NCBI GenBank assembly: GCA_002412425.1
Contig: DHVB01000031.1
Location: 14,782 to 78,781, forward strand
DNA: 64,000 bases
Direction: 5' to 3'
Source: Bacteroidales bacterium UBA5219
Lineage (GTDB): Bacteria > Bacteroidota > Bacteroidia > Bacteroidales > ML635J-15
Part shown: in pieces, positions 6,751 through 60,622 of the stretch
How the letters are laid out: the number at the start of each line of letters is the position of its first letter
How positions within the stretch are numbered: position 1 is the stretch's first letter
The notes under the pieces: generated by a model
Databases searched by the model: none
The model's input: only the letters and a program-made list of their open reading frames with translations
What the model was told of the DNA's origin: nothing
Made by a program: the position numbers and the translations under genes

Positions 6751-6765
6751 AAAAATCAATAGATT

Positions 6766-37898: not shown

Positions 37899-37920
37899 TT
37901 TATGATAAAGAAAAATTGAC

Positions 37921-38565: not shown

Positions 38566-38752
38566 TACATATCACAGAAAATACCATCGAATCCAAAATA
38601 TTGTCCTAAATTGGGTGCTAAGTTTTATTAAACAATCAAATATTTGAATTTAATTTGCAAATTTTGCACAAAAAATGTATTTTTTAAAAATAAAATGATG
38701 TTTTTTTCAATTTTGTTTGTAAATTTGCATCGAGAATTAAAAAAAGCTTGAA

Positions 38753-40045
38753 ATGATACAAGAAATTAAAATAAAAAATTTCTTATCTTTTAAAGAAGAA
38801 GTTACGTTTAGTTTTGAAGCTACTAAAGACACTTTTGCAGATGATTACCAAGTGGTAGAGGTAGCAAAAGGGGTTCGCTTGTTGCGCTTTGCAATGATCT
38901 ATGGAGCAAATGCCTCGGGAAAATCAAATTTACTGACTGTATTCAATTTTTTACATCATTTTTGGTTCTATAAACCTGATGATATAGATGAGGAAATAGG
39001 AGTAATTCCTTTTAAATTAGATAAAATTACAACCAATGAGCCATCTTCATTTGAATTAATATTCTATGTTAACAGTACTAAGTATTGGTATCAATTAGAG
39101 TTAGATGAAAAGCAAGTTTATACAGAAAAATTATTTTATTACAAAACTGTTCAACCTACCCTTTTATTTCATAGAGAATTAATAAATGATCAATCTGTTA
39201 TTAACTTTAACTCTGCTGCTGTTAAAGTAAGTTCTGTAGTTAAAGAAAAAATTTCAGTGGAGTGTCTAAAAAACATGTCTTTCTTTGCAGCTCGAGACAA
39301 AGTAAATGCTACTATTCCTGAGATTGATGTAGCTAAAGACTGGTTAAAAAAGCAAATTATGCCTGTTGTATCACCTCGTACAAAGATGTTTCAATATGCA
39401 GAAAAACAAATGTTAGAAAATAAGGATATAAAATCATATCTATTGGATTTTGTACGTGCTGCGGATTTTAATATTGTAGATATCAACACACAAATTGAAA
39501 AAAAGGAAATACCTCAAAAAGTTGTTGATTATTTTATGAATAACCCCGAGACAACAAAACAAGAAAAAGAGAAACTTAAAAAGGACCGTTTTGTTTCAAC
39601 TCCAAAAACAAGTTTTATGCATACGGTAAGCAATGAACGAGGCGAAGAAATATACAGTTTACCCGAAAATCTACAATCAGAAGGCACAAAAAGAATCTTT
39701 GGTTTAGAAGCTGCTATTTACAATGCTATTCAGGACAATTGTTTTTTATTTATTGACGAAGTCGAAACATCTTTGCACCCACAGTTACTTAGATTTGTTT
39801 TGCTCAACTTCTTAAGAAAAGAATCGTCAAGGTCACAATTATTAATCACAACACATTATGATCCTTTATTAAATGATATTGATGAAATTTTCAGAAAAGA
39901 CAGTGTTTGGTTTACTGAAAAAACAAAATCTGGTCATACAGATGTCTATTCTTTGACTGATTTTAAAGGTTTGAACAGGCTTTCTTCCATACAAAAAGCC
40001 TACAACTACAGGAAATTTGGTGCATATCCTGAAATAGATTTATAG
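38753..40045 (+). CDS. AAA_21-type ATPase (AbiLi/RloA-like)
   Basis: IKNFLSFKE N-terminus, Walker A GANASGKSN, Walker B/D-loop LFIDEVETSLHP and LITTHY. Confidence 0.8.
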   Translation: MIQEIKIKNFLSFKEEVTFSFEATKDTFADDYQVVEVAKGVRLLRFAMIYGANASGKSNLLTVFNFLHHFWFYKPDDIDEEIGVIPFKLDKITTNEPSSFELIFYVNSTKYWYQLELDEKQVYTEKLFYYKTVQPTLLFHRELINDQSVINFNSAAVKVSSVVKEKISVECLKNMSFFAARDKVNATIPEIDVAKDWLKKQIMPVVSPRTKMFQYAEKQMLENKDIKSYLLDFVRAADFNIVDINTQIEKKEIPQKVVDYFMNNPETTKQEKEKLKKDRFVSTPKTSFMHTVSNERGEEIYSLPENLQSEGTKRIFGLEAAIYNAIQDNCFLFIDEVETSLHPQLLRFVLLNFLRKESSRSQLLITTHYDPLLNDIDEIFRKDSVWFTEKTKSGHTDVYSLTDFKGLNRLSSIQKAYNYRKFGAYPEIDL

Positions 40046-40048
40046 GTT

Positions 40049-40484
40049 ATGGCAAGAAAAACAAAGAAAAGCCGGAGAGGTTATTGCCGGTGGTGGTGTT
40101 GCCGTGTGTGTATTCGATGCTGATATTTCGGAACGTAACGAAAATGAAAAGAAAAAATTGGAACAACTTCGTAAAAAATATGAAAAAGAGGAAAACATCA
40201 TTTTCTGTGATAGCTTACCGTCTATTGAGTTTTGGTTTTTATTACATTATTGCAATACTAATAAATATTTCAAGGATTCTAAATCGGTTGAGAGAGAATT
40301 GCGAAAATTTATAGTTCAATACGAAAAGAAAAAAGTTTTCTTAGAAAAAGAAAAATGGGTTGCTGACTTATGTGCAGAGAATAAAATGAAATTAGCTCAA
40401 CAAAGAGTAGAAATTTTTTCTAAGGAAAAAGGCTCTTATTCTAATATTTATAAGATTTTTAAAATCATAATAACAAAACAATGA
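40049..40484 (+). pseudogene. RloB-like (AbiLii-like) gene remnant, N-terminal region lost or frameshifted
   Basis: ATG 40049 gives MARKTKKSRRG..., which stops at 40123. A second frame (open through 40104-40484) carries the RloB-type C-terminal part (VFDAD...FCDSLPSIEFWFLLHY). The expected CEGxxTE N-terminal motif is absent. Confidence 0.5.
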
Positions 40485-43400
40485 ACATTATAGCTGAATT
40501 CCACATAGAACAATTTGCAATTTCTTTGTTCAAAGAACTTGGTTACGACTATATCTATGCTCCAGATATAGCTCCCGATGGAGAAACACCAGAAAGAGAA
40601 TCCTACGAGCAAGTTTTATTGCTTGGTCGTCTTAAAAATGCTGTAAAACGCATAAATAAAACCATTCCAGACTATGCACAAGACGAAGCAATAAAAACAA
40701 TTCAGCGTATATCTTCTCCAGATTTAGAAACTAATAATGAAACTTTTCACAGGCTATTAACAGAAGGTATTCCTGTAACAAAACGAGTGGACGGAATAGA
40801 CCGTGGAGACCGTGTTTGGATTATAGATTTTAAAAATCCATACAATAATGATTTTGTTGTTGCCAACCAGTTTACAATAGTTGAAAACAATCAAAACAAA
40901 CGTCCCGATATTATTTTGTTTGTAAATGGTATTCCGTTGGTAGTAATTGAGTTAAAAAATCCAGCAGATGAAAAAGCTACTATTCGTTCGGCATTTAAAC
41001 AAATTGAAACTTATAAGGCTATAATTCCAAGTTTATTTACCTATAATGGTATTGTTGTTATTTCAGATGGTTTAGAAGCTAAGGCAGGTTCTATTTCATC
41101 AGGTATGAGCAGGTTTATGTCATGGAGGTCGGCAGATGGAAAATCAGAGGCACCACATTTGGTAAGTGAATTAGAAACTCTTATTTTGGGTATGCTCAAT
41201 AAAGAGACATTGCTTGATTTAATTCGTCATTTTATTGTTTTTGAACAAACAAAACGTGAAGACCCAAAAACAGGAACTAATACTATATCCATAGTTAAAA
41301 AACTTGCTGCGTACCATCAATACCATGCTGTGAACCGTGCAGTAGAATCCACATTACGCGCAGCTGGCTATAATTCCCCTCCTTTGGAGGGGTGGACAGC
41401 GCAGCTGGACGGGGTGGTTTCTTCCCCTCCTCTGGAGGGGTGGTCGCAGACCGGGGTGGTATATTACCCTCCTTTAGAAGACACTCAAACACAATCTGAC
41501 GAAATGATTGCAGATTCAAAAGGTATTTATCGTAACTCTCAAAATTATTTTGAACTTCCTTATAATCCGCAGCTAAAAGAACGTGCTAGAGCATTACGTC
41601 AAGCTGGAAACTTATCAGAAGTGCTTTTTTGGAATCAGGTTAAAAATAAACAATTTAAAGGATATGATTTTGATCGCCAAAAAATAATTGGAAACTACAT
41701 AGTTGACTTTTATTGTAGTAATTGCAATGTAGTAATAGAGATAGATGGAAGTAGCCATGATAATAAAGTAGAATATGATGCAAACAGAGATGCTTATTTA
41801 GAAAGTTTGGGATTAACAATTATTCATATTCCTGTAGAAGACGTATTGCATAGAATGGATGTGGTTATGGATATGCTTTTTGATCACCCTGCCCTGCGGA
41901 CACCACTCCAAATAAAAGGAAAAAATAGAGACGACGAAAACCTAGTACAAGAACCTCCAGAAAATTACGGTTTACCTGGAGTAAAAAAACAGCCTATTGG
42001 AGACCGCAAAGGCGGTGTAGTTTGGCATACACAAGGTAGTGGGAAATCGCTTTCAATGGTTTTTTATGCAGGAAAAATTGTGCTGGCAATGAATAATCCT
42101 ACAATTGTTGTAATAACCGACCGTAACGATTTGGACGACCAACTTTTTGATACATTTGCGGCATCTAAACAATTATTACGTCAAGAACCAGTGCAAGCCG
42201 AAGATAGAAATCATCTGAAAGAACTTTTAAAAGTTGCATCAGGCGGTGTAGTTTTTACAACCATTCAGAAATTTCAACCTTATGAAGGAAATGTTTATGA
42301 ATTGCTTTCTGACCGTGAAAATATTATCGTAATTGCTGATGAGGCACACCGCACGCAATATGGATTTAAAGCAAAAACTATTGACGATAAAAATGAATCA
42401 GGAGATGTTATTGGCAAAAAAGTAGTTTACGGTTTTGCAAAATATATGCGTGATGCTTTACCAAATGCAACCTATTTAGGTTTTACAGGCACACCTATTG
42501 AAAGTACTGATGTAAATACTCCAGCAGTCTTCGGCAATTACGTAGATGTTTATGATATTGCCCAAGCTGTTGAAGATGGAGCAACTGTCCCAATTTATTA
42601 CGAAAGTCGTTTGGCAAAAGTAAATTTGAGTGAAGAAGGTAAAAAGTTGGTTGAAGACTTAGACGAAGAACTCGACCAAGAGGATATGACAAATACTCAA
42701 AAAGCAAAAGCCAAATGGACACAATTGGAAGCATTGGTAGGTAGCGAAAACCGAATTAACCAAATTGCAAAAGATATAATCGAACATTTTGAGCAAAGGC
42801 AAAGTGTTTTTGAAGGTAAAGCTATGATTGTTACTATGAGTCGACGTATTGCAGCCGATTTGTACGAAGCTATTATAAAACTAAAGCCTGAATGGTATTC
42901 AGATGAGTTAAATAAAGGTGTAATCAAAGTGGTGATGACTTCAGCTTCATCTGATGGACCTAAGATTTCAAAACACCATACAAGTAAAGAGCAACGCCGC
43001 ATATTAGCTGATCGTATGAAAAACCCAGATGATGAATTAAAACTTGTTATAGTCAGGGATATGTGGCTAACAGGTTTTGATGTTCCATGTTTGCATACCC
43101 TTTATATAGATAAACCTATGAAAGGACACAATTTAATGCAAGCTATTGCAAGGGTAAATCGTGTTTATAAAGATAAACCAGGTGGTTTAGTTGTAGATTA
43201 TTTAGGAATAGTAGCTGATTTAAAAAGAGCACTTTCGTTTTATTCCGATTCTGGAGGCAAAGGAGACCCAACTATTTTACAAGAAGAAGCTGTTCAGATG
43301 ATGTTAGAAAAAATAGAAGTGGTGTCTCAAATGTTTAATGAATTCCCCTCCTCTGGAGAGGTGTCCGAAGGACGGGGTGGTTTTAATTACTATGATTATT

Positions 43401-44290
43401 TTAATGCTGAAACTTCCAAAAAACTTTCAATAATTTTAGCCGCCGAAGAACATATTTTAGGTTTGGAAAATGGAAAAAAACGATATATAAATGAAGTTTC
43501 AGCATTATCAAAAGCTTTTGCAATAGCTATACCATACGAACAAGCAATAGATGCGAAAGATGAAGTTGCTTTCTTTCAGGCAGTAAAGGCACGTTTGGTA
43601 AAATTTGATAATACAGGTTCTGGTAAAACCGATGAAGAAATTGAAACAACTATACGTCAAGTAATCGACAAAGCATTGGTAACTGAAAAAGTAATAGATA
43701 TTTTCGATGCTGCAGGAATTAAAAAGCCTGATATTTCAATACTCTCAGAAGAATTTCTCTTAGAACTAAAAGGAATGGAACACAAAAACATTGCTTTTGA
43801 AGTATTGAAAAAAATCCTAAACGATGAAATAAAATCAAGGGCAAAAAAGAACTTTGTTAAAAGTAAGACTTTAAAGGAAATGTTAGAAGAATCCATAAGA
43901 AAATATCATGCTAAAATTATTTCAGCAGCCGAAGTAATAGAAGAATTAATAAAGCTAAGCAGAGACATCGTTAAGATAGACAGCGAAGCGAAAGAAATGG
44001 GGCTAACAGATTTTGAATATGCTTTTTACACAGCTGTTGCAGAAAATAAAAGTGCAAAAGAGTTAATGGGAAAAGAAAAATTAAGAGAACTTGCTGTAGT
44101 TCTTACAGAATCAATTAGAAGGAATGCAACTATTGATTGGACAATTAAAGAAAGTGTAAAAGCAAAATTAAGAGTTACAGTAAAAAGACTTTTAAGAAAA
44201 TATGGTTATCCACCAGATATGCAAATGCTTGCAACTGAAACTGTATTGGCACAAGCAGAATCGATTGCAAACGAATTAGCAAATGAATAA
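40481..44290 (+). CDS. hsdR: type I restriction endonuclease subunit R with an in-frame ~200-aa insertion
   Basis: PD-ExK (PDIILFVNGIPLVVIELKN). Helicase motifs HTQGSGKS, ADEAHR, FTGTP and QAIARVNR. At 1269 aa it is longer than the length I recall as typical for this HsdR family (about 1000-1080 aa). Confidence 0.93.
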   Translation: MNIIAEFHIEQFAISLFKELGYDYIYAPDIAPDGETPERESYEQVLLLGRLKNAVKRINKTIPDYAQDEAIKTIQRISSPDLETNNETFHRLLTEGIPVTKRVDGIDRGDRVWIIDFKNPYNNDFVVANQFTIVENNQNKRPDIILFVNGIPLVVIELKNPADEKATIRSAFKQIETYKAIIPSLFTYNGIVVISDGLEAKAGSISSGMSRFMSWRSADGKSEAPHLVSELETLILGMLNKETLLDLIRHFIVFEQTKREDPKTGTNTISIVKKLAAYHQYHAVNRAVESTLRAAGYNSPPLEGWTAQLDGVVSSPPLEGWSQTGVVYYPPLEDTQTQSDEMIADSKGIYRNSQNYFELPYNPQLKERARALRQAGNLSEVLFWNQVKNKQFKGYDFDRQKIIGNYIVDFYCSNCNVVIEIDGSSHDNKVEYDANRDAYLESLGLTIIHIPVEDVLHRMDVVMDMLFDHPALRTPLQIKGKNRDDENLVQEPPENYGLPGVKKQPIGDRKGGVVWHTQGSGKSLSMVFYAGKIVLAMNNPTIVVITDRNDLDDQLFDTFAASKQLLRQEPVQAEDRNHLKELLKVASGGVVFTTIQKFQPYEGNVYELLSDRENIIVIADEAHRTQYGFKAKTIDDKNESGDVIGKKVVYGFAKYMRDALPNATYLGFTGTPIESTDVNTPAVFGNYVDVYDIAQAVEDGATVPIYYESRLAKVNLSEEGKKLVEDLDEELDQEDMTNTQKAKAKWTQLEALVGSENRINQIAKDIIEHFEQRQSVFEGKAMIVTMSRRIAADLYEAIIKLKPEWYSDELNKGVIKVVMTSASSDGPKISKHHTSKEQRRILADRMKNPDDELKLVIVRDMWLTGFDVPCLHTLYIDKPMKGHNLMQAIARVNRVYKDKPGGLVVDYLGIVADLKRALSFYSDSGGKGDPTILQEEAVQMMLEKIEVVSQMFNEFPSSGEVSEGRGGFNYYDYFNAETSKKLSIILAAEEHILGLENGKKRYINEVSALSKAFAIAIPYEQAIDAKDEVAFFQAVKARLVKFDNTGSGKTDEEIETTIRQVIDKALVTEKVIDIFDAAGIKKPDISILSEEFLLELKGMEHKNIAFEVLKKILNDEIKSRAKKNFVKSKTLKEMLEESIRKYHAKIISAAEVIEELIKLSRDIVKIDSEAKEMGLTDFEYAFYTAVAENKSAKELMGKEKLRELAVVLTESIRRNATIDWTIKESVKAKLRVTVKRLLRKYGYPPDMQMLATETVLAQAESIANELANE
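41376..41480. repeat. tandem GC-rich palindromic elements (CCCCTCC-TTT-GGAGGGG...GGGGTGGT), 2.5 copies, in frame within hsdR
   Basis: Copies start at 41376, 41424 and 41467 (partial), with a 48-nt period. They encode SPPLEGW...GVV repeats. Confidence 0.85.
41552..41890 (+). other. DUF559 / Vsr-like endonuclease domain embedded in hsdR
   Basis: LRQAGNLSEVLFWNQVKNKQFKGYDFDRQKIIGNYIVDFYCSNCNVVIEIDGSSHD...RDAYLESLGLTIIHI is the typical DUF559 core. Confidence 0.8.
43345..43382. repeat. fourth copy of the GC-rich palindromic element, in frame in the hsdR 3' half
   Basis: cccctcctctggagaggtgtccgaaggacggggtggtt is almost identical to the copy at 41424-41460. Confidence 0.8.
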
Positions 44291-44456
44291 TAAATAAAAT
44301 ATTCAACATCTAAAACCACAAACGAGCCTTATGAGCCAAAAATTTGTGAAAAAAAATCACTTCCTCCAAAATATTTTTGCAAAAAAGTAAATAATAATTT
44401 ACCTTTATGCTAAATATTTAATTAGATGTAGTGTTCGAAATTATATAGACTTTAGC

Positions 44457-44852
44457 ATGAAAAAACTTAATAAAAACATCAAAATTATAGTTGAAAAAAC
44501 TGACACTGGTTTTTCAGCTTATTGCGAAGAATATCCAATTTTTACAACAGGAAGAACAGTTTCTGAATTGTTAAATAACGCATTTGAGGCAACTCAACTT
44601 TATTTTGAAGACCAATTTGAAGTTTCGCATAATAATTTGAATTTTGAAATTGATTTTGTACAATTCTTTAAATACTATAAAGTTATTAACGCAAAGTTTT
44701 TAGCAGAAAAAATTGGAATGAACCCAACATTGCTATCGCAATATGTGCAAGGACATAAAAAACCTTCCGAAAGTCAAACAGAGAAAATAATTTTAGGAAT
44801 CCAACAAATTGGACAAGAACTGTCAGAAATAAATCTGATATATAAAATGTAA
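44457..44852 (+). CDS. HicB-like antitoxin with C-terminal HTH
   Basis: KIIVEKTDTGFSAYCEEYPIFTTGRTVSELLNNAFEATQLYFED (HicB fold pattern) plus an XRE-type HTH (LAEKIGMNPTLLSQYVQG). I saw no hicA partner. Confidence 0.6.
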   Translation: MKKLNKNIKIIVEKTDTGFSAYCEEYPIFTTGRTVSELLNNAFEATQLYFEDQFEVSHNNLNFEIDFVQFFKYYKVINAKFLAEKIGMNPTLLSQYVQGHKKPSESQTEKIILGIQQIGQELSEINLIYKM

Positions 44853-45042: not shown

Positions 45043-45621
45043 ATGAGAATTTTTCAAATTCAAATTGCTTTAAAAGGGTTTAGACCAAAAATCTGGAGAA
45101 GAATATTAGTTCCTGAAAATGTATTATTACCCGATTTTCATAAAATTATTCAAACAACAATGGGTTGGACAAATTCTCATTTGCACCATTTTGTCAAAGG
45201 TAGATCATATTATGTACATAAGACAGAAGATGATGTTTTTGTGGGTAATAATAGTGATATTGATTATGCAAAAATTAAAATTTCAGACTTACTTAGTTTC
45301 GAAAAGGATAAAATTATTTATGAATATGATTTTGGTGATGACTGGGAGCATGATATTGTGTTAGAAAAAATTCTTCCGTATGATAATAAATTAGTTTATC
45401 CGATTTGTGTAAAAGGCAAAATGAATTGTCCACCCGAAGACTGCGGAGGAGTTCTCGGGTATGCATACATGTTAGAGGTGATAAAAGATCCAGAACATGA
45501 AGATTATGAAGAGCTTAGAGATTGGTTAGGAGAAGAATTTGATCCAGAATTTTTTGACATTGACACTGTAAATGAATTATTAAAAAGAAAAGATTTTGGG
45601 TGTCTAGATTTATTTTATTAG
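45043..45621 (+). CDS. pRiA4b ORF-3-like (MM3350-like) family protein
   Basis: IALKGFRPKIWRRILVP, GWTNSHLHHF, YEYDFGDDWEHDI and CPPEDCGG. Confidence 0.75.
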   Translation: MRIFQIQIALKGFRPKIWRRILVPENVLLPDFHKIIQTTMGWTNSHLHHFVKGRSYYVHKTEDDVFVGNNSDIDYAKIKISDLLSFEKDKIIYEYDFGDDWEHDIVLEKILPYDNKLVYPICVKGKMNCPPEDCGGVLGYAYMLEVIKDPEHEDYEELRDWLGEEFDPEFFDIDTVNELLKRKDFGCLDLFY

Positions 45622-45726
45622 CAATAACTACTTATATTTGTAGTATAGAATTTTACGTTTGAATGACTTTTCATATAAAGCTTAGCTTTTATTTTTAACC
45701 ACCTAAAAACCTAATCTATAATTTAA

Positions 45727-45788
45727 AATCTAAAAATTATTTTACTATATTTGTGAAATGAAAATGTTGTATTTATTAATTGAATCTA
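45727..45788. repeat. left 62-bp direct repeat bracketing the R-M/helicase cassette
   Basis: aatctaaaaattattttactatatttgtgaaatgaaaatgttgTatttaTtaattgaatcta is 60/62 identical to 51038-51099. Confidence 0.95.
45746..45753 (+). promoter_or_regulatory. TAtaTTTG -7 box inside the left direct repeat
   Basis: Matches the consensus and lies 49 nt upstream of the ATG at 45802. Confidence 0.4.
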
Positions 45789-45801
45789 CATTGACGAAGA
45801 A

Positions 45802-46716
45802 ATGAAAATAGATAAAAATCTGAAAAACAAAAAAGTAGAACTTTTGCAATACTATCGCAGTCGAGCAGAAGAATTTTTAAGTGAAATAAAACTTACTTAT
45901 GGCAATACCCAATATAGAGAACAAGCATCTGCTATTAACAAATCACTCATAGAAACTAAAGATATTTTGTTGGCAACACTTTTGCAGATAGCAGAAAATG
46001 AGAAGTGGACAAATAGGGAAAAACTCGAAAGTATTCTAATGATCACTTATACAAATTACATTGTAATGCTTGAATCAAGAAATAATGTTTGGTCCTATGA
46101 ATATATGACATTTTCAAGAAGAATTGGCGAATTATGGGAACCTTTTTGTAAACTTTGTTTTGCTTATCCTATTAATAAAATTCAACTATTCATACCACCA
46201 TTATTTTCTGAAGTTAAAAAGAAATTATCAGATGAAATAGAGGCGTATATTGATAAATTGAAAATATCAAAAGAAGAAAAAAAACAATTAAAAAAGTATT
46301 ATTACAAAGTTTGGGGACTTGTAACATCGGGAGAAATAAAACTTGAGTTAGATTTACATTTTATCTATAATAATCAAAAAATTGTTGTTGATTTTAAAAG
46401 TGGGTTTGGCTCAAACGAAAAAGGAAATACAAACAGACTTCTTTTGGTTGCTAGTATTTATAAAAACTTAGAAGAAAATTATAAATGCATGATTTTTGTT
46501 AGAGCGAATGAAAATAATCATTATTTTCAAACACTCAAGAACTCAGGTATTTGGGATGCTTTTAGTGGAGCAGAAGCATATAATCAAATGAATATTTTTT
46601 CTGGGTTTGATATTAAAAATTGGATTGAACTTAATGTTAATTGGGAGAAAGATTTCAAAAAAGAAACAATGCAATTTTTTAAACAAAACAATCTTGACCA
46701 ATACTTAATTTGGTAA
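45802..46716 (+). CDS. hypothetical protein, candidate PD-(D/E)xK restriction endonuclease
   Basis: ELDLHFIYNNQKIVVDFKSG fits a D...DxK nuclease core. Its stop overlaps the methyltransferase start (TAATG). Confidence 0.45.
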   Translation: MKIDKNLKNKKVELLQYYRSRAEEFLSEIKLTYGNTQYREQASAINKSLIETKDILLATLLQIAENEKWTNREKLESILMITYTNYIVMLESRNNVWSYEYMTFSRRIGELWEPFCKLCFAYPINKIQLFIPPLFSEVKKKLSDEIEAYIDKLKISKEEKKQLKKYYYKVWGLVTSGEIKLELDLHFIYNNQKIVVDFKSGFGSNEKGNTNRLLLVASIYKNLEENYKCMIFVRANENNHYFQTLKNSGIWDAFSGAEAYNQMNIFSGFDIKNWIELNVNWEKDFKKETMQFFKQNNLDQYLIW

Positions 46717-48230
46717 TGTTTCAGGAAGCAAGAAAATATCAGGCATTTTATACCAAATCAACTCCGATTGTTGATTATATGGTGCAAAACTTATCATTAA
46801 AATCTGATGATAGAATATTAGAACCATGCGGAGGCGATGGGGTCTTTGTAGAATCAATTATTGATAAAAATGAATATGCATATGTTGATATTTATGAATT
46901 GAATGAAAAATCTATAAAAATATTAAATAAAAAATTTTCATATTTACCTAATGTAAGAATAAAACATAGCGACACGCTTTTAGACGAAGAATTAATATTT
47001 AATTCAAGCTTTGGGGGAATTTATGACAAAATTATTGCAAATCCACCTTATGGAGCATGGCAGGATTATGAAAAAAGAGATGTTTTAAAGAAATTATTTC
47101 CAAATATCTATACAAAAGAAACTTATGGTTTATTCCTTTATAGGAGTATTGAACTATTGAGGGATAAAGGATTACTCACTTTCATAATCCCTGACACATA
47201 TTTAAATTTGCACATGCATAAAGCTTTGCGAAAGCATATTTTAAAAAAAACCAAAATAAAAGAACTTGCACTATTTCCATCTTCATTTTTCCCTGGTGTA
47301 AATTTTGGTTATGCAAATTTATCTATAATTACACTTGAGAAATGTTTTAACCAGAAAGAATGTTTAAATAATAATTTCAAAATAATTAATGGATTCAAAA
47401 ACGTAGAACAACTATCGGATATAAATTCGGAAACAGATTTAAATATAAAAATTTATCATCAAAAGGATATTTATACAAACCCTGACCATGCATTTTTGAT
47501 TTCTGATAATTTTGAAATAATAAATGCAATTAATAATTCAAAACTAAAAATAGGAGAAATTGCAAGTTGTGTAACTGGCTTCTACTCAGGAGATGATAAA
47601 ACATTTTTGCAAGTTAGTAATACGGATTTGAAAAATGCAAAAAATTATAATATAGTTAATCCTAATTCAATAAATAGGGATTATCAAAATATTTCCAATT
47701 TACTTGATGGTATTAATGGGACAAAACATTTTATACCAATTGTTAAAGGTGGAAATGTAAAATACTTGAAGTCAGAAGGGTGGTTTATGAATTGGAGCAA
47801 GGAAGCTGTAAAGCATTATAAAACTGATAAGAAAGCAAGATTTCAAAACCCTCAATTTTATTTTAAATTTGGAATAGGCGTACCAATGATTAGTAGCAGT
47901 AGCATTACTGCATCATTAATTGAATACAAATTATTTGATCAAAGTATTGTTGGAATCTTTCCAAAAGACGAAAGTTTAACGTATTATTTATTAGCATTTT
48001 TTAATTCGCCTACTTGTAATAAATTCATTCGAACAATAAATCCATCGGCAAATAATCCTGCCAATTATATCAAGAAAATTCCATTTATTATTCCTGAAAA
48101 ACATGTTTTAAATTTAATAAATCAGAAAACAAGTGAAATTCTTAATTCAATTAAACAATTAGGGGGTTATAATGATGATACTGAGAGGGAAATTTGGAGT
48201 ATAATTGAAGAAATATATCAAATTGATTAA
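46716..48230 (+). CDS. N6-adenine DNA methyltransferase (gamma class, Eco57I/TaqI-like)
   Basis: Motif I LEPCGGDGVF and motif IV IIANPPYG, with a long C-terminal target-recognition region. Confidence 0.85.
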   Translation: MFQEARKYQAFYTKSTPIVDYMVQNLSLKSDDRILEPCGGDGVFVESIIDKNEYAYVDIYELNEKSIKILNKKFSYLPNVRIKHSDTLLDEELIFNSSFGGIYDKIIANPPYGAWQDYEKRDVLKKLFPNIYTKETYGLFLYRSIELLRDKGLLTFIIPDTYLNLHMHKALRKHILKKTKIKELALFPSSFFPGVNFGYANLSIITLEKCFNQKECLNNNFKIINGFKNVEQLSDINSETDLNIKIYHQKDIYTNPDHAFLISDNFEIINAINNSKLKIGEIASCVTGFYSGDDKTFLQVSNTDLKNAKNYNIVNPNSINRDYQNISNLLDGINGTKHFIPIVKGGNVKYLKSEGWFMNWSKEAVKHYKTDKKARFQNPQFYFKFGIGVPMISSSSITASLIEYKLFDQSIVGIFPKDESLTYYLLAFFNSPTCNKFIRTINPSANNPANYIKKIPFIIPEKHVLNLINQKTSEILNSIKQLGGYNDDTEREIWSIIEEIYQID

Positions 48231-48245
48231 ATACGCAACACTAAA

Positions 48246-50995
48246 TTGAAAGAATTTCCCAAAAATATAAATTTCAAATACAGCTGGAGAACTTATCAGA
48301 AAAGAGTTCTTGATGATTTAGAACAACATCTTGATGATAATCATTTGCATATTATTGCTCCACCAGGCTCAGGAAAAACTGTGCTTGGACTCGAAGTTGC
48401 TATTCGACTTAATAAACCAAGCTTGATTTTTGCTCCAACTATCGCAATTAGAAACCAATGGATTCAAAGACTTTGTGAACTATTTCTTCAAACAAACGAA
48501 ATGCCCGACTGGATTTCTATAGATATAAAAAATCCAAAATTTCTTACAGTTGTTACTTATCAGGCTCTTCATGCAGCAGTAACAAACACCATTGTTGAAG
48601 AAGATTCAGAAATTCTTGATGCAGATGAGGATTTTGAAAACGGCGAAAATGAAAAAACTGTAAAAATTATTGATGCTACAGATATTGTAAACTCACTTAA
48701 AGACAAAGGTGTGAAAACTATTGTTGTTGATGAGGCACATCATTTAAAAAATGAATGGTGGAAATGTCTTAATGTAGTTAAAAAAGCTTTAAAACCTACA
48801 ATAGTTGGATTAACAGCAACTCCTCCTTATGAGTTTCTTATACTGAGTGGCAAAGATATATTGATTTAAATGGTCCTGTCGATGCTGAAATATCTGTCCC
48901 AGAACTTGTTGCTGAAAATGATTTGTGTCCTCATCAAGATTATATTTATTTATCAGAACCTACTGAGGAAGAATTTTCAATAATTCAAAACCAAAGAAAC
49001 AAAACACAAAATATTTATGAAGAAATAAAAAACGATGAGGTATTAATAAAAGCTCTAACCAATCATAAAATTTTCCTAAACCCTTCTGAAAACCTCGAAT
49101 GGATATATAATAATCTTGAATATTATTCCTCAGTATTAATTTTTCTAAATTCTATAGGCAAATTTGTTACAAAAGACCATTTAAAAGTAATTGATACTAA
49201 GAAATTTACATTGCCAGAGCTAAATTATGAATGGCTTGAAATTCTTCTATCGTTTTACCTTTTTGAAGATAAAGAAAACTTTACTGCTTATGAAGATCAC
49301 AAAGAAAAACTGATAAATAAATTAAAGAGAAATGGATTAATTGAGAGAAAAAGAATAAATTTCCAGTATAATCAAAAAGTAGATCGTTTGATTAGCACAT
49401 CGTTGAGCAAATTACAAAGCATAAAGACTATTGTAGATGTTGAGTATAGTGTGTTAAGAAACAATCTGAGAATGGTAATTCTTACGGATTATATTCGCAA
49501 GGAATTTTTGATTAATGAAAGTCAAAACAATTTAGTTTTAAATAAAATAGGCGTATTGCCAATATTTGAACAACTTAGAAGAGCTAATGATAAAAATATA
49601 AAATTAGGAATTCTTTCTGGTTCTTTAGTTGTGATACCAAAAACAGCAACAAAAGCTCTTACAGAAGCTTCACAGAAATTAGGTATTGAAAATCTTTCGT
49701 TTTCAAATTTAGCTTACGACAATAATTATTTAATTGTAAACTCCAACGAAAGTATTAAGCACAACATTGTACATTTAATTACTCAAATATTTGAGCAAGG
49801 AGAAATAGAAGTTCTTATTGGTACAAAATCATTATTAGGAGAAGGTTGGGACGCTTCAACTTTAAATTCTTTAATTTTGGCAAGTTTTGTAGGTTCTTAT
49901 GTTCTTTCAAATCAAATGCGAGGTAGAGCAATACGTTCTGATAGAAAGAATCCAAATAAAACAGGCAATATTTGGCATTTAGTTTGTGTTGACCATACAG
50001 CAAATGACGGAGGTAGTGATTTGCATTTAATGAAAAGACGTTTTAAATCTTTTGTTGGTATAAACAATAAAAAAGAAGTTTTTGTAGAAAATGGAATTGA
50101 CAGACTAAATCTGCCTAAAAATTTTACAGACTTAGAGCTTGCAAATTATAATAAACAAACTATTCAAATAGCAAGTCAGAGAGAAAATTTAAAAAAGAAA
50201 TGGAGCGATGCACTGTTAAATGGTGTTAATATTGTAGAAGAAATAAAAGTTCCATTTCCTGATGATAAGGATTACAAAAAGTTAATATCATTATACTATT
50301 ACAAAACTATTGCTTACCTTTTTGCAACATTGGGAGCAAGTTTATTTGTCTTTTTTAAAACTTTTTTAGAAACTTTAGGCAGATCAATATCAAATATTCG
50401 TTCTATGAACGATTTATTTGCATTTATAATGGTTTTTGGTATTATTGGCGTTCTTTTGTTTGGGTGGCAGTTTTATAGAACTTTTCGGATATACATTAAG
50501 TATAGAGACATTTCTAAAGATGCTCATCAAATTGGAGAAGCTTTGTTAGAATCGCTTGTAAAGGTTGGAGCAATACAAACTGAGTATTCAAAATTGTTTG
50601 TGAAAACCTCAATTGACGATATTGGAGCTATTTATTGCCATCTTGATGGAGGTACGACATACGAAAAATCTTTGTTTATAAAGGCTATGCAAGAAATATT
50701 AGCAAATATTGATAATCCTCGATATTTAATTATTAGAAAAAGTTTGTTTTTAAAAATAATATCTCAAAAAGATTATCATTCTGTACCAGAAATACTTGGT
50801 CAAAACAAAAAATCAGCCGAATATTTCGCAAGACAATGGAAAAGATTTGTTGGCTCATGCAAATTGATTTATACAAGAACAATTGAAGGAAGAAAAATAC
50901 TATTAAAATCGCGACTAAACTCCCTCGCTTCAGAATTTGAAGAAAAAACAGAAAGAATAAATACAAATAAGATAAATACTAAATTGAGGAGATAG
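48246..50995 (+). pseudogene. SF2 (ResIII/DEAD-DEAH) helicase with two predicted TM helices, interrupted by a 1-nt frameshift near 48832
   Basis: APPGSGKT, VDEAHH, LTATPPY, then after the shift VSYTEWQRYIDLNGPVDAEISVPELV..., LGEGWD and QMRGRAIR. Hydrophobic segments are IAYLFATLGASLFVFF and FAFIMVFGIIGVLLFGW. The track splits it into 48246..48869 and 48923..50995. Confidence 0.8.
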
Positions 50996-51037
50996 TGGTG
51001 AGTTGTGGGGATTTTTAAAAACAAGATTTTAGCGTAT

Positions 51038-51099
51038 AATCTAAAAATTATTTTACTATATTTGTGAAATGAAAATGTTGCATTTACTAATTGAATCTA
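51038..51099. repeat. right 62-bp direct repeat bracketing the cassette
   Basis: See 45727-45788. It contains a TAtaTTTG box at 51057-51064. Confidence 0.95.
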
Positions 51100-51172
51100 A
51101 ATTATAATAAAAAACTCAAATAAATTTTTTTATATTTAAAAAAGACTATATTTGTATTTATTGAAAATTATT

Positions 51173-51673
51173 ATGAGTATGAAAAAAGCATTTTTAATTT
51201 TGATATTTTGTGTTTTTGCAAGTTTTGCATCTAAAGCTCAGTTTAGTGGGTTTGTTGATTTAAAAATACCGACAGCCGAAAATTCTGTTCCTTTTTTTGG
51301 TCCTGGTGTGCAGTATCTTCATGAATTAGAAAATGGTTTGAGTATAGGTGGATTAGTTGCTTATCGCCAAAGATTAGATTTTAACAGTTTTAGTGGTAAT
51401 ATTCCTATTATGCTTGTTTCTAGATATTATACTAGCGGTAGGGGCAGAGGATTTTATCCTCAAGTAGGTGTAGGTTTTAACACAACATTTAGAATATATA
51501 AAAATAAATTACTAAACCGAACAGACTCATATTCGATAACATGTTTTTCGTATGTAGCTGGTATAGGCGGAAAATTCAAAAACAATTTAGATATATCTGC
51601 ACATTTCGAAGGATATGTTCTAAATGCAAAACATAGTGGAGCTATTTTGTTAAGGGTTGGATTTGGAATTTGA
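51173..51673 (+). CDS. small outer-membrane beta-barrel protein (tandem paralogue 1)
   Basis: Signal peptide (MSMKKAFLILIFCVFASFASKAQ). It shares blocks with the next gene (IGG..AYRQ.L.F, NIPIM..(S/A)RYY, LYPQ.G.G, GGK.KNNLD.S.HFEG). Confidence 0.6.
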   Translation: MSMKKAFLILIFCVFASFASKAQFSGFVDLKIPTAENSVPFFGPGVQYLHELENGLSIGGLVAYRQRLDFNSFSGNIPIMLVSRYYTSGRGRGFYPQVGVGFNTTFRIYKNKLLNRTDSYSITCFSYVAGIGGKFKNNLDISAHFEGYVLNAKHSGAILLRVGFGI

Positions 51674-51728
51674 TAAAAAAAAGACCTGTTTTAATAAAAG
51701 TATGTATTAAATATTTGAAATTTTATAT

Positions 51729-52235
51729 ATGAAAAAAGTATTTTTAATTTCTATTTTTTGTATTTTTATAAGTTTTACATCTGTGTCCCAAGAAGCGAGC
51801 GGAAATGTAGATTTTGTAATTCCTACATATTCCGGCGCAGATCCTTCTTTAGGAGTAGGATTATTGTATCTTTATGACTTAGACAATGGCATTAACATTG
51901 GTGGATATACTGCTTATCGTCAAATGTTGAATTTTAAAGGATATTTTTCTAATATTCCAATAATGTTTATTGCTAGATATTATATAAATGGTGGAAGTAG
52001 TGGACTTTATCCTCAAATAGGTTTAGGTGCAGACTATTCGATTGCAGTAATTAAATACAAATGGTGGGAAAATCTTGTTTACAAAGTTTCCTCTTCAGCT
52101 ATATCTTTTGCATATTCAGTAGGCTTAGGTGGAAAATTAAAAAACAATTTAGATTTATCCGGACATTTCGAAGGGCGTGTATATAAAAACAATCATAGAG
52201 GATATGTCGTATTGAGAGTGGGATATTGGTTTTAA
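51729..52235 (+). CDS. small outer-membrane beta-barrel protein (tandem paralogue 2)
   Basis: Same architecture and conserved blocks as 51173..51673. Confidence 0.6.
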   Translation: MKKVFLISIFCIFISFTSVSQEASGNVDFVIPTYSGADPSLGVGLLYLYDLDNGINIGGYTAYRQMLNFKGYFSNIPIMFIARYYINGGSSGLYPQIGLGADYSIAVIKYKWWENLVYKVSSSAISFAYSVGLGGKLKNNLDLSGHFEGRVYKNNHRGYVVLRVGYWF

Positions 52236-52240
52236 GAATA

Positions 52241-52330
52241 TCAGTTAAAAGTTTATAAAGTTCGTAAAGTTCGTAAAGTTTGTAAAGTTTGTAAAGTCGC
52301 TTCGACTTTCAACTTTTAACTTTTAACTGA
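52241..52330. repeat. long hairpin of short-period repeats (NNTAAAGTT x5 opposed to AACTTTN x4) between convergent genes, probably a bidirectional terminator
   Basis: tcagttaaaagtttataaagttcgtaaagttcgtaaagtttgtaaagtttgtaaagtcgcttcgactttcaacttttaacttttaactga fills the whole gap between the stops at 52235 and 52332. Confidence 0.8.
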
Positions 52331-52331
52331 A

Positions 52332-53384
52332 TTATTTCCCGTACATTTTTTCGTAATAGCTTTTGTAATCGCCTGATACTATGCGATTTAGCCATTCTTG
52401 ATTTTGTAAATACCAATCAACAGTTTTTTCTAGTCCTTCTTCAAATTGTAAAGATGGTTCCCAGCCAAGTTCTTTCATTAGTTTTGAGCTATCGATTGCA
52501 TAACGCAAATCATGTCCTGCACGGTCTTTAACAAAAGTGATTAGCGAAGCTGATTTTCCTTCTTCTCTGCCAAGTTTTTTGTCCATAACTTTGCAAAGTA
52601 CTTTTATCAAATCAATATTTTGCCACTCATTATTTCCGCCAATGTTGTAAGTATCGCCAAGTTTTCCTTTATGGAAAATTATATCTATAGCTCTTGCGTG
52701 GTCGTGAACATAAAGCCAGTCGCGAACATTTTCGCCTTTTCCATAAATTGGAATTGGTTTCATGTTTTTAATATTGTTAATTGCTAAAGGAATTAGTTTT
52801 TCAGGAAATTGATTAGGACCGTAATTGTTTGAACAATTAGACAAAACAACAGGTAAATCAAAAGTGTGAAAATATGCTCTTACCAAATGGTCTGAACTTG
52901 CTTTAGAAGCAGAATATGGCGAACGTGGATCATAGCTTGTTTCTTCTGTGAAAAAACCTTCTGCACCAAGCGAACCATAAACTTCATCGGTAGAAATATG
53001 GTAAAAACGTTTTCCAGAAAAATTATCCTTCCAACAAGCACGAGAAGCATTTAATAAGTTTACAGTTCCTATAATATTTGTGAAAATAAATTCAGTTGGA
53101 TTACTAATACTGCGGTCAACATGAGATTCTGCTGCTAGGTGAATTACACCATCGGGATTGTATTTATTAAAAACAGCATTTATAGCTTGCTCGTCAACTA
53201 TATCTATTTTTTCAAATTTATAATTTGGTAATTTTTCAATATCTCTAAGGTTTTCTAAATTTCCAGCATAAGTTAAACTATCAATATTTACAATATTGTA
53301 GTTAGGATATTTTGTTACAAAAAGTCTAACAACATGAGAGCCAATAAAGCCAGCACCACCAGTAATAAAAATAGTTTTGTTCAT
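52332..53384 (-). CDS. rfbB: dTDP-glucose 4,6-dehydratase
   Basis: ITGGAGFIGSH Rossmann motif and YSASKASSDHL (YxxxK). I chose the ATG at 53384 because the track's 50-aa N-terminal extension is non-native. Confidence 0.93.
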   Translation of the reverse strand: MNKTIFITGGAGFIGSHVVRLFVTKYPNYNIVNIDSLTYAGNLENLRDIEKLPNYKFEKIDIVDEQAINAVFNKYNPDGVIHLAAESHVDRSISNPTEFIFTNIIGTVNLLNASRACWKDNFSGKRFYHISTDEVYGSLGAEGFFTEETSYDPRSPYSASKASSDHLVRAYFHTFDLPVVLSNCSNNYGPNQFPEKLIPLAINNIKNMKPIPIYGKGENVRDWLYVHDHARAIDIIFHKGKLGDTYNIGGNNEWQNIDLIKVLCKVMDKKLGREEGKSASLITFVKDRAGHDLRYAIDSSKLMKELGWEPSLQFEEGLEKTVDWYLQNQEWLNRIVSGDYKSYYEKMYGK

Positions 53385-60032: not shown

Positions 60033-60123
60033 AGTGAATATTATTTATTAATTTTAATTATGACAAAGTTAAATTAAATTTTCAATTATCATGCAAGCGA
60101 AAAATATTAAAGCAAGAAAATTT

Positions 60124-60622
60124 TAGTTAAAAGTTAATAAAGTTTTTAAAGTTCGTAAAGTTAAATCCATCTGAGCAATAAACTCAACACTCAACACAAT
60201 AAACACCCCGCTCGCTCGGATTTGTAATCCGAGCGAGCGTCATGGGTGTTGGGAGCGAGCAATAGTGGTGCTAGGAGCGAGCTGGTGTGGGTTTTGTAAA
60301 TAGCAAATTAATTTTCATCAATTTTTCGTAATTAACTTTCATCACTTTATCAAAAGTTTTTCCGTAGGACACATCAGTTAAAAGTTTATAAAGTTCAACT
60401 GAGTTTACGAGCTCGCTGAAAGCAAAGTTCATAAAGGAAAGCCAATCATAAAACCGCTTTTAATTTTTAACTTTAAACTGAGTATGCGTTAGCTTCTTTT
60501 GTGTCCTTTTGTGTCTTTTGTGGTTTAAAACTAATCCATGCGAGTAGAGTGAGCTTGCGAACTCTGCGAAGCAATAGACGCGTCAGCCACTTTCGACTTT
60601 CGACTTTTAACTTTTAACTGAC
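60124..60622. repeat. ~500-bp composite non-coding element bounded by inverted AAAGTT/AACTTT arrays, with GC-rich hairpin cores
   Basis: Left array is 60124-60162 and right array is 60585-60622. An inner pair lies at 60375-60403 and 60456-60482. A perfect 13-bp hairpin (cgctcgctcggat-ttgta-atccgagcgagcg) sits near 60208-60238. CTTTTGTGT occurs three times near 60495-60525. Confidence 0.8.

What the first reader, a model, noticed from the sequence alone, without database searches (positions are those of the whole stretch)
45727..51099. 5.3-kb nuclease-candidate/methyltransferase/helicase cassette bracketed by 62-bp direct repeats that carry a promoter box
The 62-nt sequence aatctaaaaattattttactatatttgtgaaatgaaaatgttg(T/C)attta(T/C)taattgaatcta occurs at 45727-45788 and 51038-51099 with only two mismatches. 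Exactly three co-directional genes lie between the copies. They are a 304-aa protein with a D...DxK nuclease-like core, a gamma-class N6-adenine methyltransferase (coupled through a TAATG overlap) and a large SF2 helicase. Each repeat contains a TAtaTTTG -7 box, so the left copy would drive the cassette. The right copy lies upstream of the resident OMP gene. That gene also has its own TAtaTTTG box closer to its start (about 51148-51155). No integrase, transposase or inverted terminal repeat lies inside. The long direct repeats therefore point to an unusual insertion mechanism, such as site-specific or homology-driven capture at a promoter. They also imply the cassette can be lost again by repeat-mediated deletion. 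An R-M pair combined with a membrane-associated helicase is not a standard type I, II or III layout.
Basis: seen in the sequence. Interest (0 to 1): 0.8.

Follow-up and report, generated by a model that had tools for sequence, protein, structure and literature searches.

The report
Strain-variable restriction cassette with flanking repeats
A 5.3-kb block holding a restriction-modification gene pair and a broken helicase gene is present in some strains of an uncultured Bacteroidales bacterium and cleanly absent in others; it is bracketed by a duplicated 62-bp promoter segment, a known way for such gene pairs to sit in genomes.

Summary
The repeat is real. Copies at 45727-45788 and 51038-51099 differ at 2 of 62 positions, and these are the only copies in the window. 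In public genome and metagenome scans the repeat core occurs only at this locus. The predicted empty site exists. Seven independent contigs from the same species carry PRiA4_ORF3, one repeat copy and the OMP gene, with flanks 99.3-100% identical to the window. The "three-gene system" reading fails. The 304-aa nuclease and the 504-aa Eco57I-type methyltransferase form a self-contained Type II R-M pair, found without the helicase in every other context I looked at. The helicase occurs alone in other Bacteroidota, and here it is a pseudogene (1-nt deletion near 48831, 207-aa and 690-aa ORFs). The same deletion appears in many independent assemblies. Relatives show R-M decay in the order R, then M. 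The cassette is 98.4% identical to a sister lineage, against 94.3% in the 7.8 kb downstream and 96-97% on the PRiA4 side, so it was exchanged after those lineages split. The pattern meets the published criteria for "R-M insertion with long target duplication" (Furuta et al. 2010). It is a new Bacteroidales member of a known kind. The mechanism and the direction (gain or loss) remain inferred.

The parts
45043..45621 (+). Left flanking resident gene, PRiA4_ORF3 family. It is present in both filled and empty alleles.
   Evidence: Pfam PF07929, E=4e-65. An identical protein is found on contigs both with and without the cassette.
45727..45788 (+). Left copy of the 62-nt direct repeat ('TT' variant; 69 nt if taken as 45724-45792).
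   Evidence: The same TT variant lies left of the cassette in every filled relative.
45746..45753 (+). TATATTTG, a Bacteroidota-type -7 box, 56 nt upstream of the R start. It is the inferred promoter of the cassette.
   Evidence: TAnnTTTG is about 3-fold enriched in intergenic DNA of the window and usually lies 24-60 nt upstream of starts. Promoter activity was not tested.
45802..46716 (+). Type II restriction endonuclease gene (304 aa, PD-(D/E)XK-like core D184...D197-F-K199).
   Evidence: PADLOC REase_II PDLC03405, E=1.5e-94 over the full length. The catalytic-type residues are invariant in 29 homologs. The AF2 model has pLDDT 88. Its best structural hits are weak (none at E<=0.001) but are mostly PD-(D/E)XK nucleases such as EcoO109I, Ecl18kI and SgrAI.
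46716..48230 (+). Gamma-class N6-adenine DNA methyltransferase gene (504 aa). Its start overlaps the R stop in TAATG.
   Evidence: Pfam Eco57I PF07669, E=1.3e-16. PADLOC MTase_II, E=1.6e-33. EPCGGDG at residue 36 and NPPY at residue 109.
48246..50995 (+). SF2 helicase pseudogene. A 1-nt deletion at about 48831-48833 splits it into 207-aa and 690-aa ORFs. The C-terminal part has two hydrophobic segments.
   Evidence: Intact 916-aa versions at 99% identity are P0121, L013 and L007.
50996..51037 (.). Cassette-specific spacer between the helicase stop and the right repeat copy. It is absent from empty sites.
   Evidence: It shows no significant similarity to the left flank.
51038..51099 (+). Right copy of the 62-nt direct repeat ('CC' variant; 69 nt if taken as 51035-51103). 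It is identical to the single copy in empty sites.
51147..51154 (+). The OMP gene's own proximal TATATTTG box, 32 nt upstream of its ATG.
51179..52235 (+). Right flanking resident genes: two paralogous small beta-barrel OMP genes (51179-51673 and 51729-52235).
   Evidence: Weak Pfam OMP_b-brl hits. The two genes are 71% identical as a direct repeat. Both are present in filled and empty alleles.

Best explanation
The segment 45789-51037 is an accessory block in a strain-variable defence-gene hotspot of an uncultured anaerobic-digester or wastewater Bacteroidales species. It is built from two unrelated modules.

1. A self-contained Type II restriction-modification pair: a PD-(D/E)XK endonuclease and a gamma-class m6A methyltransferase, translationally coupled through TAATG.
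2. A neighbouring SF2 helicase gene that is dead in this strain.

The block is bracketed by a 62-69-bp duplication of the intergenic sequence that occurs once, between the PRiA4_ORF3 gene and the OMP gene, in cassette-free strains. This is the pattern described for R-M systems as 'insertion with long target duplication'.

What is shown:
- the repeats;
- the single-copy empty allele;
- the composite make-up of the block;
- the frameshift;
- stepwise decay of the R-M pair (R first, then M) in relatives;
- a cassette that is less diverged than its flanks between lineages.

What is inferred:
- The left copy supplies the TAnnTTTG promoter for R and M.
- Filled and empty alleles interconvert by one reciprocal crossover within the repeat. 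That means loss by copy-against-copy recombination, and gain by the reverse reaction with a circular copy, or by import through flanking homology.
- The direction of the event in this lineage is not resolved.
For: Repeat and uniqueness. The 24-mer core found one genome contig, four metagenome contigs and no viral contig, all at this same locus.

Empty sites: L017, L021, L026, L027, L029, L030 and L031 have the left flank, one CC copy and the right flank. Their flanks are 99.3-100% identical to the window. The filled contig L025 and the empty contig L027 are identical at all 37 variable flank positions.

Filled allele identical to the window in independent assemblies: L019, L022, L023/L028 and L024, with L020 and L025 nearly identical.

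Module independence: the R-M unit (45797-48223) occurs at 87-89% nt identity in L001-L006 without the helicase, and again in L033-L035. On Klebsiella plasmids it appears as HTH plus an R homolog, next to a convergent Eco57I-type MTase. The helicase occurs alone in L008-L012 and L036.

R-M identity.

Frameshift.

Decay series with identical deletion junctions: delta-R in L013, L014 and L037; delta-R plus delta-M in L007, L016 and L018. The junctions show 2-nt and 6-nt microhomology.

Cassette 98.4% identical to the sister lineage, against 94.3% in the 7.8 kb downstream, 96-97% on the PRiA4 and upstream side, and 85% across the OMP genes.

Published criteria for the class: PMC2853133.
Against: No circular or tandem junction (spacer, repeat, then R leader) was seen among the 31 repeat copies in the fetched loci. 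Recombination at the repeat is therefore not observed directly.

All seven empty sites carry the CC variant. That fits either direction and does not prove recurrent excision.

In the sister lineage the helicase is followed only by a diverged partial copy of the left flank plus the first half of the repeat. The duplication therefore has an older and more complex history than one clean event.

Promoter activity, endonuclease activity and methylation specificity are untested.

Fold matches for R are weak, none at E<=0.001.
Confidence: 0.7

Rival explanations
1. The repeat is an att-like site. The cassette is a non-autonomous element, like a cis-mobilisable element or an integron cassette, that a site-specific recombinase encoded elsewhere (or the adjacent PRiA4_ORF3 protein) inserts and excises at this site.
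For: Both boundaries of the presence/absence difference fall exactly within the repeat. The left junction is constant in all lineages, while different cargo follows repeat-like copies in L013/L037 and L007. The hexamer AATCTA occurs at both ends of the repeat and once more 14 nt upstream. The delta-R deletion starts exactly at the repeat's end.
Against: No recombinase lies in or next to the cassette. The repeat has no predicted structure (z-score +0.6) and no inverted repeats. It is not found at any other locus or on viral contigs. Boundaries inside the repeat are equally expected from plain homologous recombination between the copies. No recombinase role is known for PRiA4_ORF3 (my own knowledge, not tested).
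Confidence: 0.12
2. There is no special insertion event in this lineage. An older duplication already flanked the cassette in a donor lineage. The filled allele was brought in, or the empty allele restored, by ordinary double-crossover allelic replacement through the long homologous flanks after DNA uptake.
For: The cassette is much less diverged than its flanks between lineages. Combinations of delta-R, delta-M and the frameshift require recombination inside the cassette. Filled and empty alleles sit on several shared flank haplotypes. Sister-lineage cassettes carry diverged repeat-like copies after the helicase.
Against: The window's left flank is of the recipient type right up to about 85 nt or less from the first T/C site. 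A left crossover anywhere in about 1 kb of homology would therefore have had to fall next to the repeat. The window's spacer at 50996-51037 matches neither known sister-lineage variant. This model also only pushes the origin of the duplication further back.
Confidence: 0.25
3. R, M and the helicase form one functional three-component, helicase-dependent restriction system.
For: The three genes are co-directional and tightly spaced, with 15 nt between M and the helicase. They travel together in this species complex. Some sources name helicase homologs 'restriction endonuclease subunit R'.
Against: The helicase is frameshifted wherever R and M are both seen intact. In nine other R-M contexts no helicase is adjacent. 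In six helicase contexts no R-M is adjacent. No model of a known helicase-dependent defence system matches the helicase beyond weak hits.
Confidence: 0.03
4. The empty or filled structures are metagenome assembly artefacts caused by collapse or chimeric joining at the repeat.
For: Short repeats can mislead assemblers when mixed strains are present.
Against: The longest exact shared run is 43 nt, below the usual final k-mer sizes (my inference). Both alleles recur in many independent assemblies from ENA, JGI, NCBI and Logan samples, on distinct flank haplotypes.
Confidence: 0.02

Closest known systems
R-M gene complexes inserted with a long target duplication (Nobusato et al. 2000, cited from my own knowledge; Furuta, Abe and Kobayashi 2010, PMC2853133)
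   Same: Both R and M lie in an insert under 20 kb. The insert is flanked by direct repeats longer than 30 bp that are unique in the genome and align once with an empty site in a conspecific genome. No mobility gene lies inside.
   Different: This is the first case I am aware of in Bacteroidales, and it comes from metagenome strains. The insert also carries a helicase pseudogene. The duplicated target carries a promoter box. Relatives show a second, older and diverged duplication with different limits. The published cases are mostly in naturally competent Proteobacteria.
Classical Type II R-M operons with separate R and M genes, with or without a C (controller) protein
   Same: A PD-(D/E)XK-type endonuclease sits beside a gamma-class NPPY methyltransferase. 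The pairing is conserved across phyla. Relatives carry an upstream HTH gene (L005, L033, Klebsiella plasmids). Decay runs R first, then M.
   Different: No C gene accompanies the pair in the window. The REase family has no Pfam model, no solved structure and no named prototype that I could find. The recognition sequence is unknown.
Cis-mobilisable elements and integron cassettes (non-autonomous units flanked by recombination sites)
   Same: The cassette has no recombinase of its own, is flanked by direct repeats, sits at a fixed chromosomal hotspot, and follows a promoter-bearing site that precedes the cargo.
   Different: No integrase is nearby, there is no structured attC-like site, no copies occur elsewhere, and no circular junction was seen.
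Chromosomal defence-island hotspots between conserved core genes (my own knowledge of work in E. coli, Vibrio and Pseudomonas)
   Same: The same pair of boundary genes (PRiA4_ORF3 and OMP) encloses different defence cargo in different strains: nothing; R-M plus helicase; or helicase plus a T9SS protein or SAM-MTase plus AAA_21/RloB.
   Different: Here one cargo block has a clean long direct repeat and a matching empty site, which is usually not resolvable at such hotspots.

Membership tests
R-M insertion with long target duplication (criteria of Furuta et al. 2010) | The insert contains both an R and an M gene homolog. | tested here: met
   REase_II HMM at E=1.5e-94 and Eco57I/MTase_II hits.
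R-M insertion with long target duplication (criteria of Furuta et al. 2010) | The insert is shorter than 20 kb. | tested here: met
   5,249 nt lie between the copies, and the copy-to-copy spacing is 5,311 nt.
R-M insertion with long target duplication (criteria of Furuta et al. 2010) | The flanking direct repeat is longer than 30 bp. | tested here: met
   62 nt with 2 mismatches, or 69 nt at 94% identity.
R-M insertion with long target duplication (criteria of Furuta et al. 2010) | The repeat aligns once with a related genome that lacks the insert (an empty site). | tested here: met
   Seven contigs have a single copy and flanks 99.3-100% identical to the window.
R-M insertion with long target duplication (criteria of Furuta et al. 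2010) | No mobility genes are linked, and the repeat is not a multi-copy element. | tested here: met
   No integrase or transposase domain lies inside. There are only 2 copies in the window. The core occurs only at this locus in the genome, metagenome and viral scans. Complete genomes of the strains were not available.
Type II restriction-modification system | A separate endonuclease with a nuclease catalytic core. | tested here: met
   Full-length match to PADLOC PDLC03405. D184, D197 and K199 are invariant. Fold hits to PD-(D/E)XK REases are only weak.
Type II restriction-modification system | A cognate DNA methyltransferase with SAM-binding and NPPY motifs, with the pairing conserved across genomes. 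| tested here: met
   Motifs at residues 36 and 109. The pair is adjacent in all other R contexts examined.
Type II restriction-modification system | Sequence-specific cleavage that is blocked by the cognate methylation. | not testable with these tools
   This needs cloning and expression, or methylome data.
Helicase-dependent restriction systems (Type I, Type III, ISP, or a novel three-gene system) | The helicase or translocase co-occurs with the R-M genes and is intact. | tested here: not met
   The helicase is frameshifted here. It is absent from the other R-M contexts, and R-M is absent from the other helicase contexts.
Integrative element using site-specific recombination | An integrase or recombinase gene is present and att sites flank the element (often at a tRNA gene). 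| tested here: not met
   No recombinase domain lies in the cassette or in the adjacent genes scanned. The window has no tRNA gene. A trans-acting enzyme cannot be excluded.
Integron gene cassette | A structured, imperfectly palindromic attC site lies at the cassette end. | tested here: not met
   Folding of the repeat is no better than shuffled sequence (z=+0.6).
Transposon or IS-borne cassette | Terminal inverted repeats, a short target duplication and a transposase are present. | tested here: not met
   Only low-complexity inverted matches occur, none at the cassette ends. No transposase was found.

The most novel reading that the evidence does not exclude
The 62-bp promoter-bearing segment is a dedicated recombination site of a chromosomal cassette hotspot in Bacteroidales. 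Recombinase-less defence cassettes (R-M plus helicase, T9SS protein, SAM-MTase, AAA_21/RloB) would be captured behind copies of this segment and excised again by a trans-acting factor, possibly the always-adjacent and sometimes tandemly duplicated PRiA4_ORF3 protein. That would be an integron-like capture-and-expression platform without an integron integrase or attC structure.
Probability: 0.08. Interest if true: 0.8.

Novelty: new member of a known kind. Interest (0 to 1): 0.4.

Why it matters
How R-M gene pairs enter genomes with long target duplications, without any mobility gene, has been an open question since the pattern was described; my knowledge of that literature is partial. This locus offers an unusually complete natural series in one abundant uncultured species:
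- the empty site;
- the intact insert;
- inserts that have lost R;
- inserts that have lost both R and M;
- the same cassette in a diverged sister lineage with different right-hand junctions.

Public metagenomes containing these strains could be mined for excision or circular junction reads and for methylation motifs. That would give a direct test of whether recombination between the repeats drives gain and loss. The locus also illustrates the order in which an addictive R-M pair decays, and shows that gene adjacency inside a defence island (R-M next to a helicase) need not mean a functional system.

Tried and rejected
- Dispersed-repeat hypothesis: rejected. There are two copies in the window even at loose thresholds, and all public hits are at this locus.
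- Sequencing error as the cause of the helicase frameshift: rejected. The same deletion is present in 11 loci fetched from independent assemblies.
- A generic promoter motif as the cause of the repeat similarity: rejected. A relaxed AAAAATWTATTTTAY search showed no enrichment, though my pattern carried one base too many and did not match the repeat itself. No other copy of either repeat half turns up at 7 mismatches or fewer.
- Structured RNA or an attC-like site: none found.
- Terminal inverted repeats: none found.
- Compositional anomaly: none. The cassette is 28.3% GC against 29.8% for the window.
- PDB sequence search for R: no hit.
- Pfam and NCBIfam for R: no family.
- Similarity of the window's spacer (50996-51037), and of a sequence downstream of the T9SS gene in L037, to the left flank: not significant. 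I therefore do not claim that the window's duplication was once longer.
- Resolving the direction (gain or loss) from flank haplotypes and from the TT/CC variants: inconclusive.
- OMP homolog search for more distant empty sites: it found only one further cluster, the sister lineage, where the site is filled.
Full report
**Observation.** The quoted 62-mer is present at 45727-45788 and 51038-51099 with two T/C mismatches. With looser ends it is a 69-nt repeat at 94% identity, at 45724-45792 and 51035-51103. The first 43 nt are identical. Shuffled sequence gives no such pair. No third copy of either half exists in the 64-kb window, even at 7 mismatches. The DNA between the copies is 28.3% G+C, against 29.8% for the window, so it is not compositionally foreign.

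**Genes between the copies.**
- R: 45802-46716 encodes a 304-aa protein.
- M: its stop overlaps the ATG of a 504-aa methyltransferase gene (46716-48230) in TAATG.
- Frameshift: the reading frames join if one base is restored at about 48831-48833. A 916-aa protein that is 99% identical exists (P0121).
- Direct comparison: intact relatives read TATGATGTTTCT. The window and 11 fetched loci from independent assemblies read TATGA-GTTTCT.

The frameshift is therefore a real inactivating deletion, not a sequencing error, and it does not lie in a homopolymer.

**Identity of R and M.** The 304-aa protein has no Pfam, NCBIfam or PDB sequence match. It does match PADLOC's Type II restriction enzyme model PDLC03405 over its full length (E=1.5e-94). 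About 2,300 homologs exist across phyla, nearly all 304 aa long. An AlphaFold model (pLDDT 88) has a helical N-terminal domain and an alpha/beta core. Its best PDB matches are weak, none at E<=0.001, but they are mostly PD-(D/E)XK nucleases: EcoO109I, Ecl18kI, SgrAI, and the Cdn1 and Card1 nuclease domains. The methyltransferase matches Pfam Eco57I and Type II MTase and PglX-type models. Motif I lies at residue 36, ahead of NPPY at residue 109, which is the gamma-class order.

**Is it a three-gene system? No.** The R-M unit (window 45797-48223) recurs at 87-89% nucleotide identity in other metagenomic genomes with entirely different neighbours and no helicase. Some of these copies have an upstream HTH (controller-type) gene (L001-L006; L033-L035). 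On Klebsiella IncFIB plasmids a 30%-identical homolog sits behind an HTH gene and next to a convergent Eco57I-domain methylase. Conversely, the helicase family (about 906-916 aa, two hydrophobic C-terminal segments) is widespread in Bacteroidota as a lone gene in unrelated neighbourhoods. It matches no known defence-system model beyond weak hits. The block is a composite of a Type II R-M pair and an unrelated helicase gene that is dead here.

**Relatives of the locus.** A 24-nt core of the repeat was scanned in the public collections.

| Collection | Contigs hit |
|---|---|
| One genome per species | 1 (a Bacteroidales MAG) |
| JGI metagenomes | 4 |
| Viral contigs | 0 |

Every hit is this same locus. 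Exact-protein look-ups of the flanking PRiA4_ORF3 and OMP proteins brought many more contigs. The alleles found are these:

| Allele | Loci | Structure |
|---|---|---|
| (a) Filled, as in the window | L019, L020, L022, L023/L028, L024 (GCA_002397795.1), L025 | TT copy left, CC copy right; most are 100% identical to the window |
| (b) Empty | L017, L021, L026, L027, L029, L030, L031 | PRiA4_ORF3, left flank, one CC copy, right flank, OMP; flanks 99.3-100% identical |
| (c) Both copies, R and most of M deleted, helicase frameshifted | L016, L018 | R deleted (45789-46679), most of M deleted (46929-48210) |
| (d) Sister lineage | L013, L014, L037-L039 | R deleted, M and helicase intact, then a diverged repeat-like sequence, a T9SS-tail protein, AAA_21/RloB and the OMP genes |
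| (e) L007 | L007 | R and M deleted, helicase intact, then a SAM-methyltransferase, AAA_21/RloB and the OMP genes |

L015 carries R on a background with a tandemly duplicated PRiA4_ORF3 gene.

**Are the alleles real?** They recur in assemblies from ENA, JGI, NCBI and Logan, on distinct flank haplotypes. The two copies share at most 43 exact bases, which is shorter than typical final assembly k-mers; this last point is my inference.

**Population pattern.**
- Filled L025 and empty L027 are identical at all 37 variable positions in about 1 kb on each side. Each state occurs on several flank haplotypes.
- The R deletion has the same junction everywhere (2-nt microhomology, TA). The M deletion also has a single junction (6-nt microhomology, AAATAT).
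- R is lost alone or together with M, and M is never seen lost while R is present. This is the order expected for an addictive R-M pair; that expectation is established knowledge, and the order is shown here only by the alleles sampled.
- The combination "R and M deleted plus frameshift" (L016, L018) coexists with "R and M deleted, helicase intact" (L007) and "R and M intact plus frameshift" (window). This requires recombination within the cassette.
- Between the window and the sister lineage the cassette is 98.4% identical over 4.4 kb. Outside it, identity is 94.3% in the 7.8 kb downstream, 96-97% on the PRiA4 and upstream side, and 85% across the OMP genes. The cassette was therefore exchanged after the lineages split.

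**History of the duplication.** In the sister lineage the helicase is followed by a diverged copy of about 22 nt of the left flank plus the first half of the repeat. For L013 the alignment score is 51, against 21.8 +/- 3.5 for shuffles. For L007 it is 35, with none of 300 shuffles reaching that value. The cassette therefore carried repeat-like DNA at its right end before it reached its present form, and the limits of the duplication differ between alleles. Furuta et al. describe such duplications as "long and variable". The window's own spacer (50996-51037) shows no significant similarity to the left flank.

The left copy is TT in every lineage. The right copy and all empty sites are CC. Two routes fit this pattern:
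- integration of a TT-bearing circular cassette into a CC site, with the crossover in the first 43 nt;
- deletion by a crossover between the copies in the same stretch.

I could not decide the direction.

**Mechanism, inferred.** TAnnTTTG is about three-fold enriched in intergenic DNA of the window and typically lies 24-60 nt upstream of start codons. The box in the left copy lies 56 nt upstream of the R start and is the only such box within 100 nt of it. It is the likely promoter of R-M and, formerly, of the helicase. The OMP gene keeps its own box at -32, and the copy at -122 is also present in the empty allele. The repeat has no predicted structure. The cassette has no terminal inverted repeats and no recombinase. 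The window has no tRNA gene and no Rfam match. The simplest account is reciprocal recombination within the 62-69-bp repeat, homologous or just possibly site-specific in trans, which interconverts filled and empty alleles. Ordinary homologous exchange through the flanks would then spread either allele among strains.

**Comparison with what is known.** Furuta, Abe and Kobayashi (2010, PMC2853133) define "insertion with long target duplication" by these criteria:
- R and M both lie in the insert;
- the insert is under 20 kb;
- the direct repeats exceed 30 bp;
- no other mobile element is linked;
- the repeat aligns with an empty site in a related genome.

They list cases for Types I to IV, mostly in Proteobacteria, and the mechanism is unknown. 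Every criterion is met here (see the membership table). I therefore file this as a new member, from Bacteroidales, of a known kind. It is not a new kind of R-M system or a new insertion mechanism.

**Context.** The segment lies in a strain-variable defence region running from about 33 kb to 51 kb. It contains:
- an AbiJ-NTD4 protein and a Ser/Thr kinase;
- Type I hsdM and hsdS;
- an AAA_21/RloB pair nested before hsdR;
- an hsdR with an in-frame DUF559 insertion;
- an HTH gene and PRiA4_ORF3;
- then the cassette.

In some strains the whole Type I region is replaced by an IS3-family element.

**Verdict.** The locus is a well-documented example of an already described phenomenon. Its value is as a natural series for testing how such insertions form and decay.

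Noticed in passing
window 40481-44290 (hsdR); repeats at 41374-41412, 41422-41460 and 43343-43381; DUF559 at about 41573-41878: The Type I hsdR gene (1269 aa) carries an in-frame DUF559 (Vsr-like endonuclease) domain at residues 365-466. GC-rich 39-nt repeats (TTCCCCTCCTCTGGAGGGGTGG..., coding PPLEGW-like peptides) sit just upstream of it, and a third copy lies 1.9 kb downstream. These are odd in a 30% GC genome and look like a mobile in-frame insertion. Relatives have 1269-aa and 1285-aa versions.
   Followed up: partly
window 38753-40484: An AAA_21/AAA_15 ATPase gene and an RloB-like gene are nested between hsdS and hsdR. RloB is truncated to 126 aa here, against 195 aa in L018 and L025-L027.
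   Followed up: partly
L021, L029, L030 and L031 (upstream of PRiA4_ORF3); window about 33000-44660: In several conspecific strains the whole Type I R-M region is replaced by an IS3-family element (HTH_Tnp_1 plus rve) next to a remnant of the 131-aa HTH gene. The presence/absence variation therefore extends well beyond the cassette.
   Followed up: partly
L007 1-1910; L015 6002-7689: The PRiA4_ORF3 gene is tandemly duplicated in some relatives, with the junction joining window 45701 to 44902. The second copy is only about 86% identical in the gene. PRiA4_ORF3 is the constant left neighbour of every cassette variant.
   Followed up: partly
L037 6584-9852; L007 5043-7944: In the sister lineage the same hotspot also holds a T9SS-tail protein or a SAM-dependent methyltransferase, plus a second AAA_21/RloB pair, between the helicase and the OMP genes. 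The right boundary of homology with the window is exactly the end of the repeat (window 51103).
   Followed up: partly
window 48246-50995; homologs P0121-P0240: The helicase belongs to a conserved family of about 906-916 aa, widespread in Bacteroidota. It has an SF2 core and a long C-terminal extension with two hydrophobic segments, and it always sits in variable neighbourhoods. It matches no known defence model and its function is unknown.
   Followed up: partly
window 21327-21370, 52237-52298 and 60119-60162; complementary copies at 52301-52333, 60452-60484 and 60592-60624: A dispersed intergenic element is built from 9-nt units (TAAAGTTCG and similar), in inverted pairs between convergent or terminal gene ends. 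It may be a terminator-like or REP-like repeat of this genome.
   Followed up: no
window 3452-7632: Three families of direct repeats (102 nt at 90%, 78 nt in 3 copies, 57 nt at 91%) link 3452-3805 and about 4113 with 6766-7632. They point to duplicated gene modules flanking the 796-aa gene at 4360-6750.
   Followed up: no
window 51729-52235; L018 and L025-L027: The second OMP paralog is 168 aa in the window but is called as 122 aa in several strains, which carry a 1-nt indel at about 52139. This small surface-protein gene is also strain-variable.
   Followed up: partly
window 25591-27209 and 33064-34735: Further defence-type genes lie in the window: an AbiEi/AbiEii toxin-antitoxin pair on the minus strand, and an AbiJ-NTD4 protein followed by a Ser/Thr protein kinase.
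   Followed up: no
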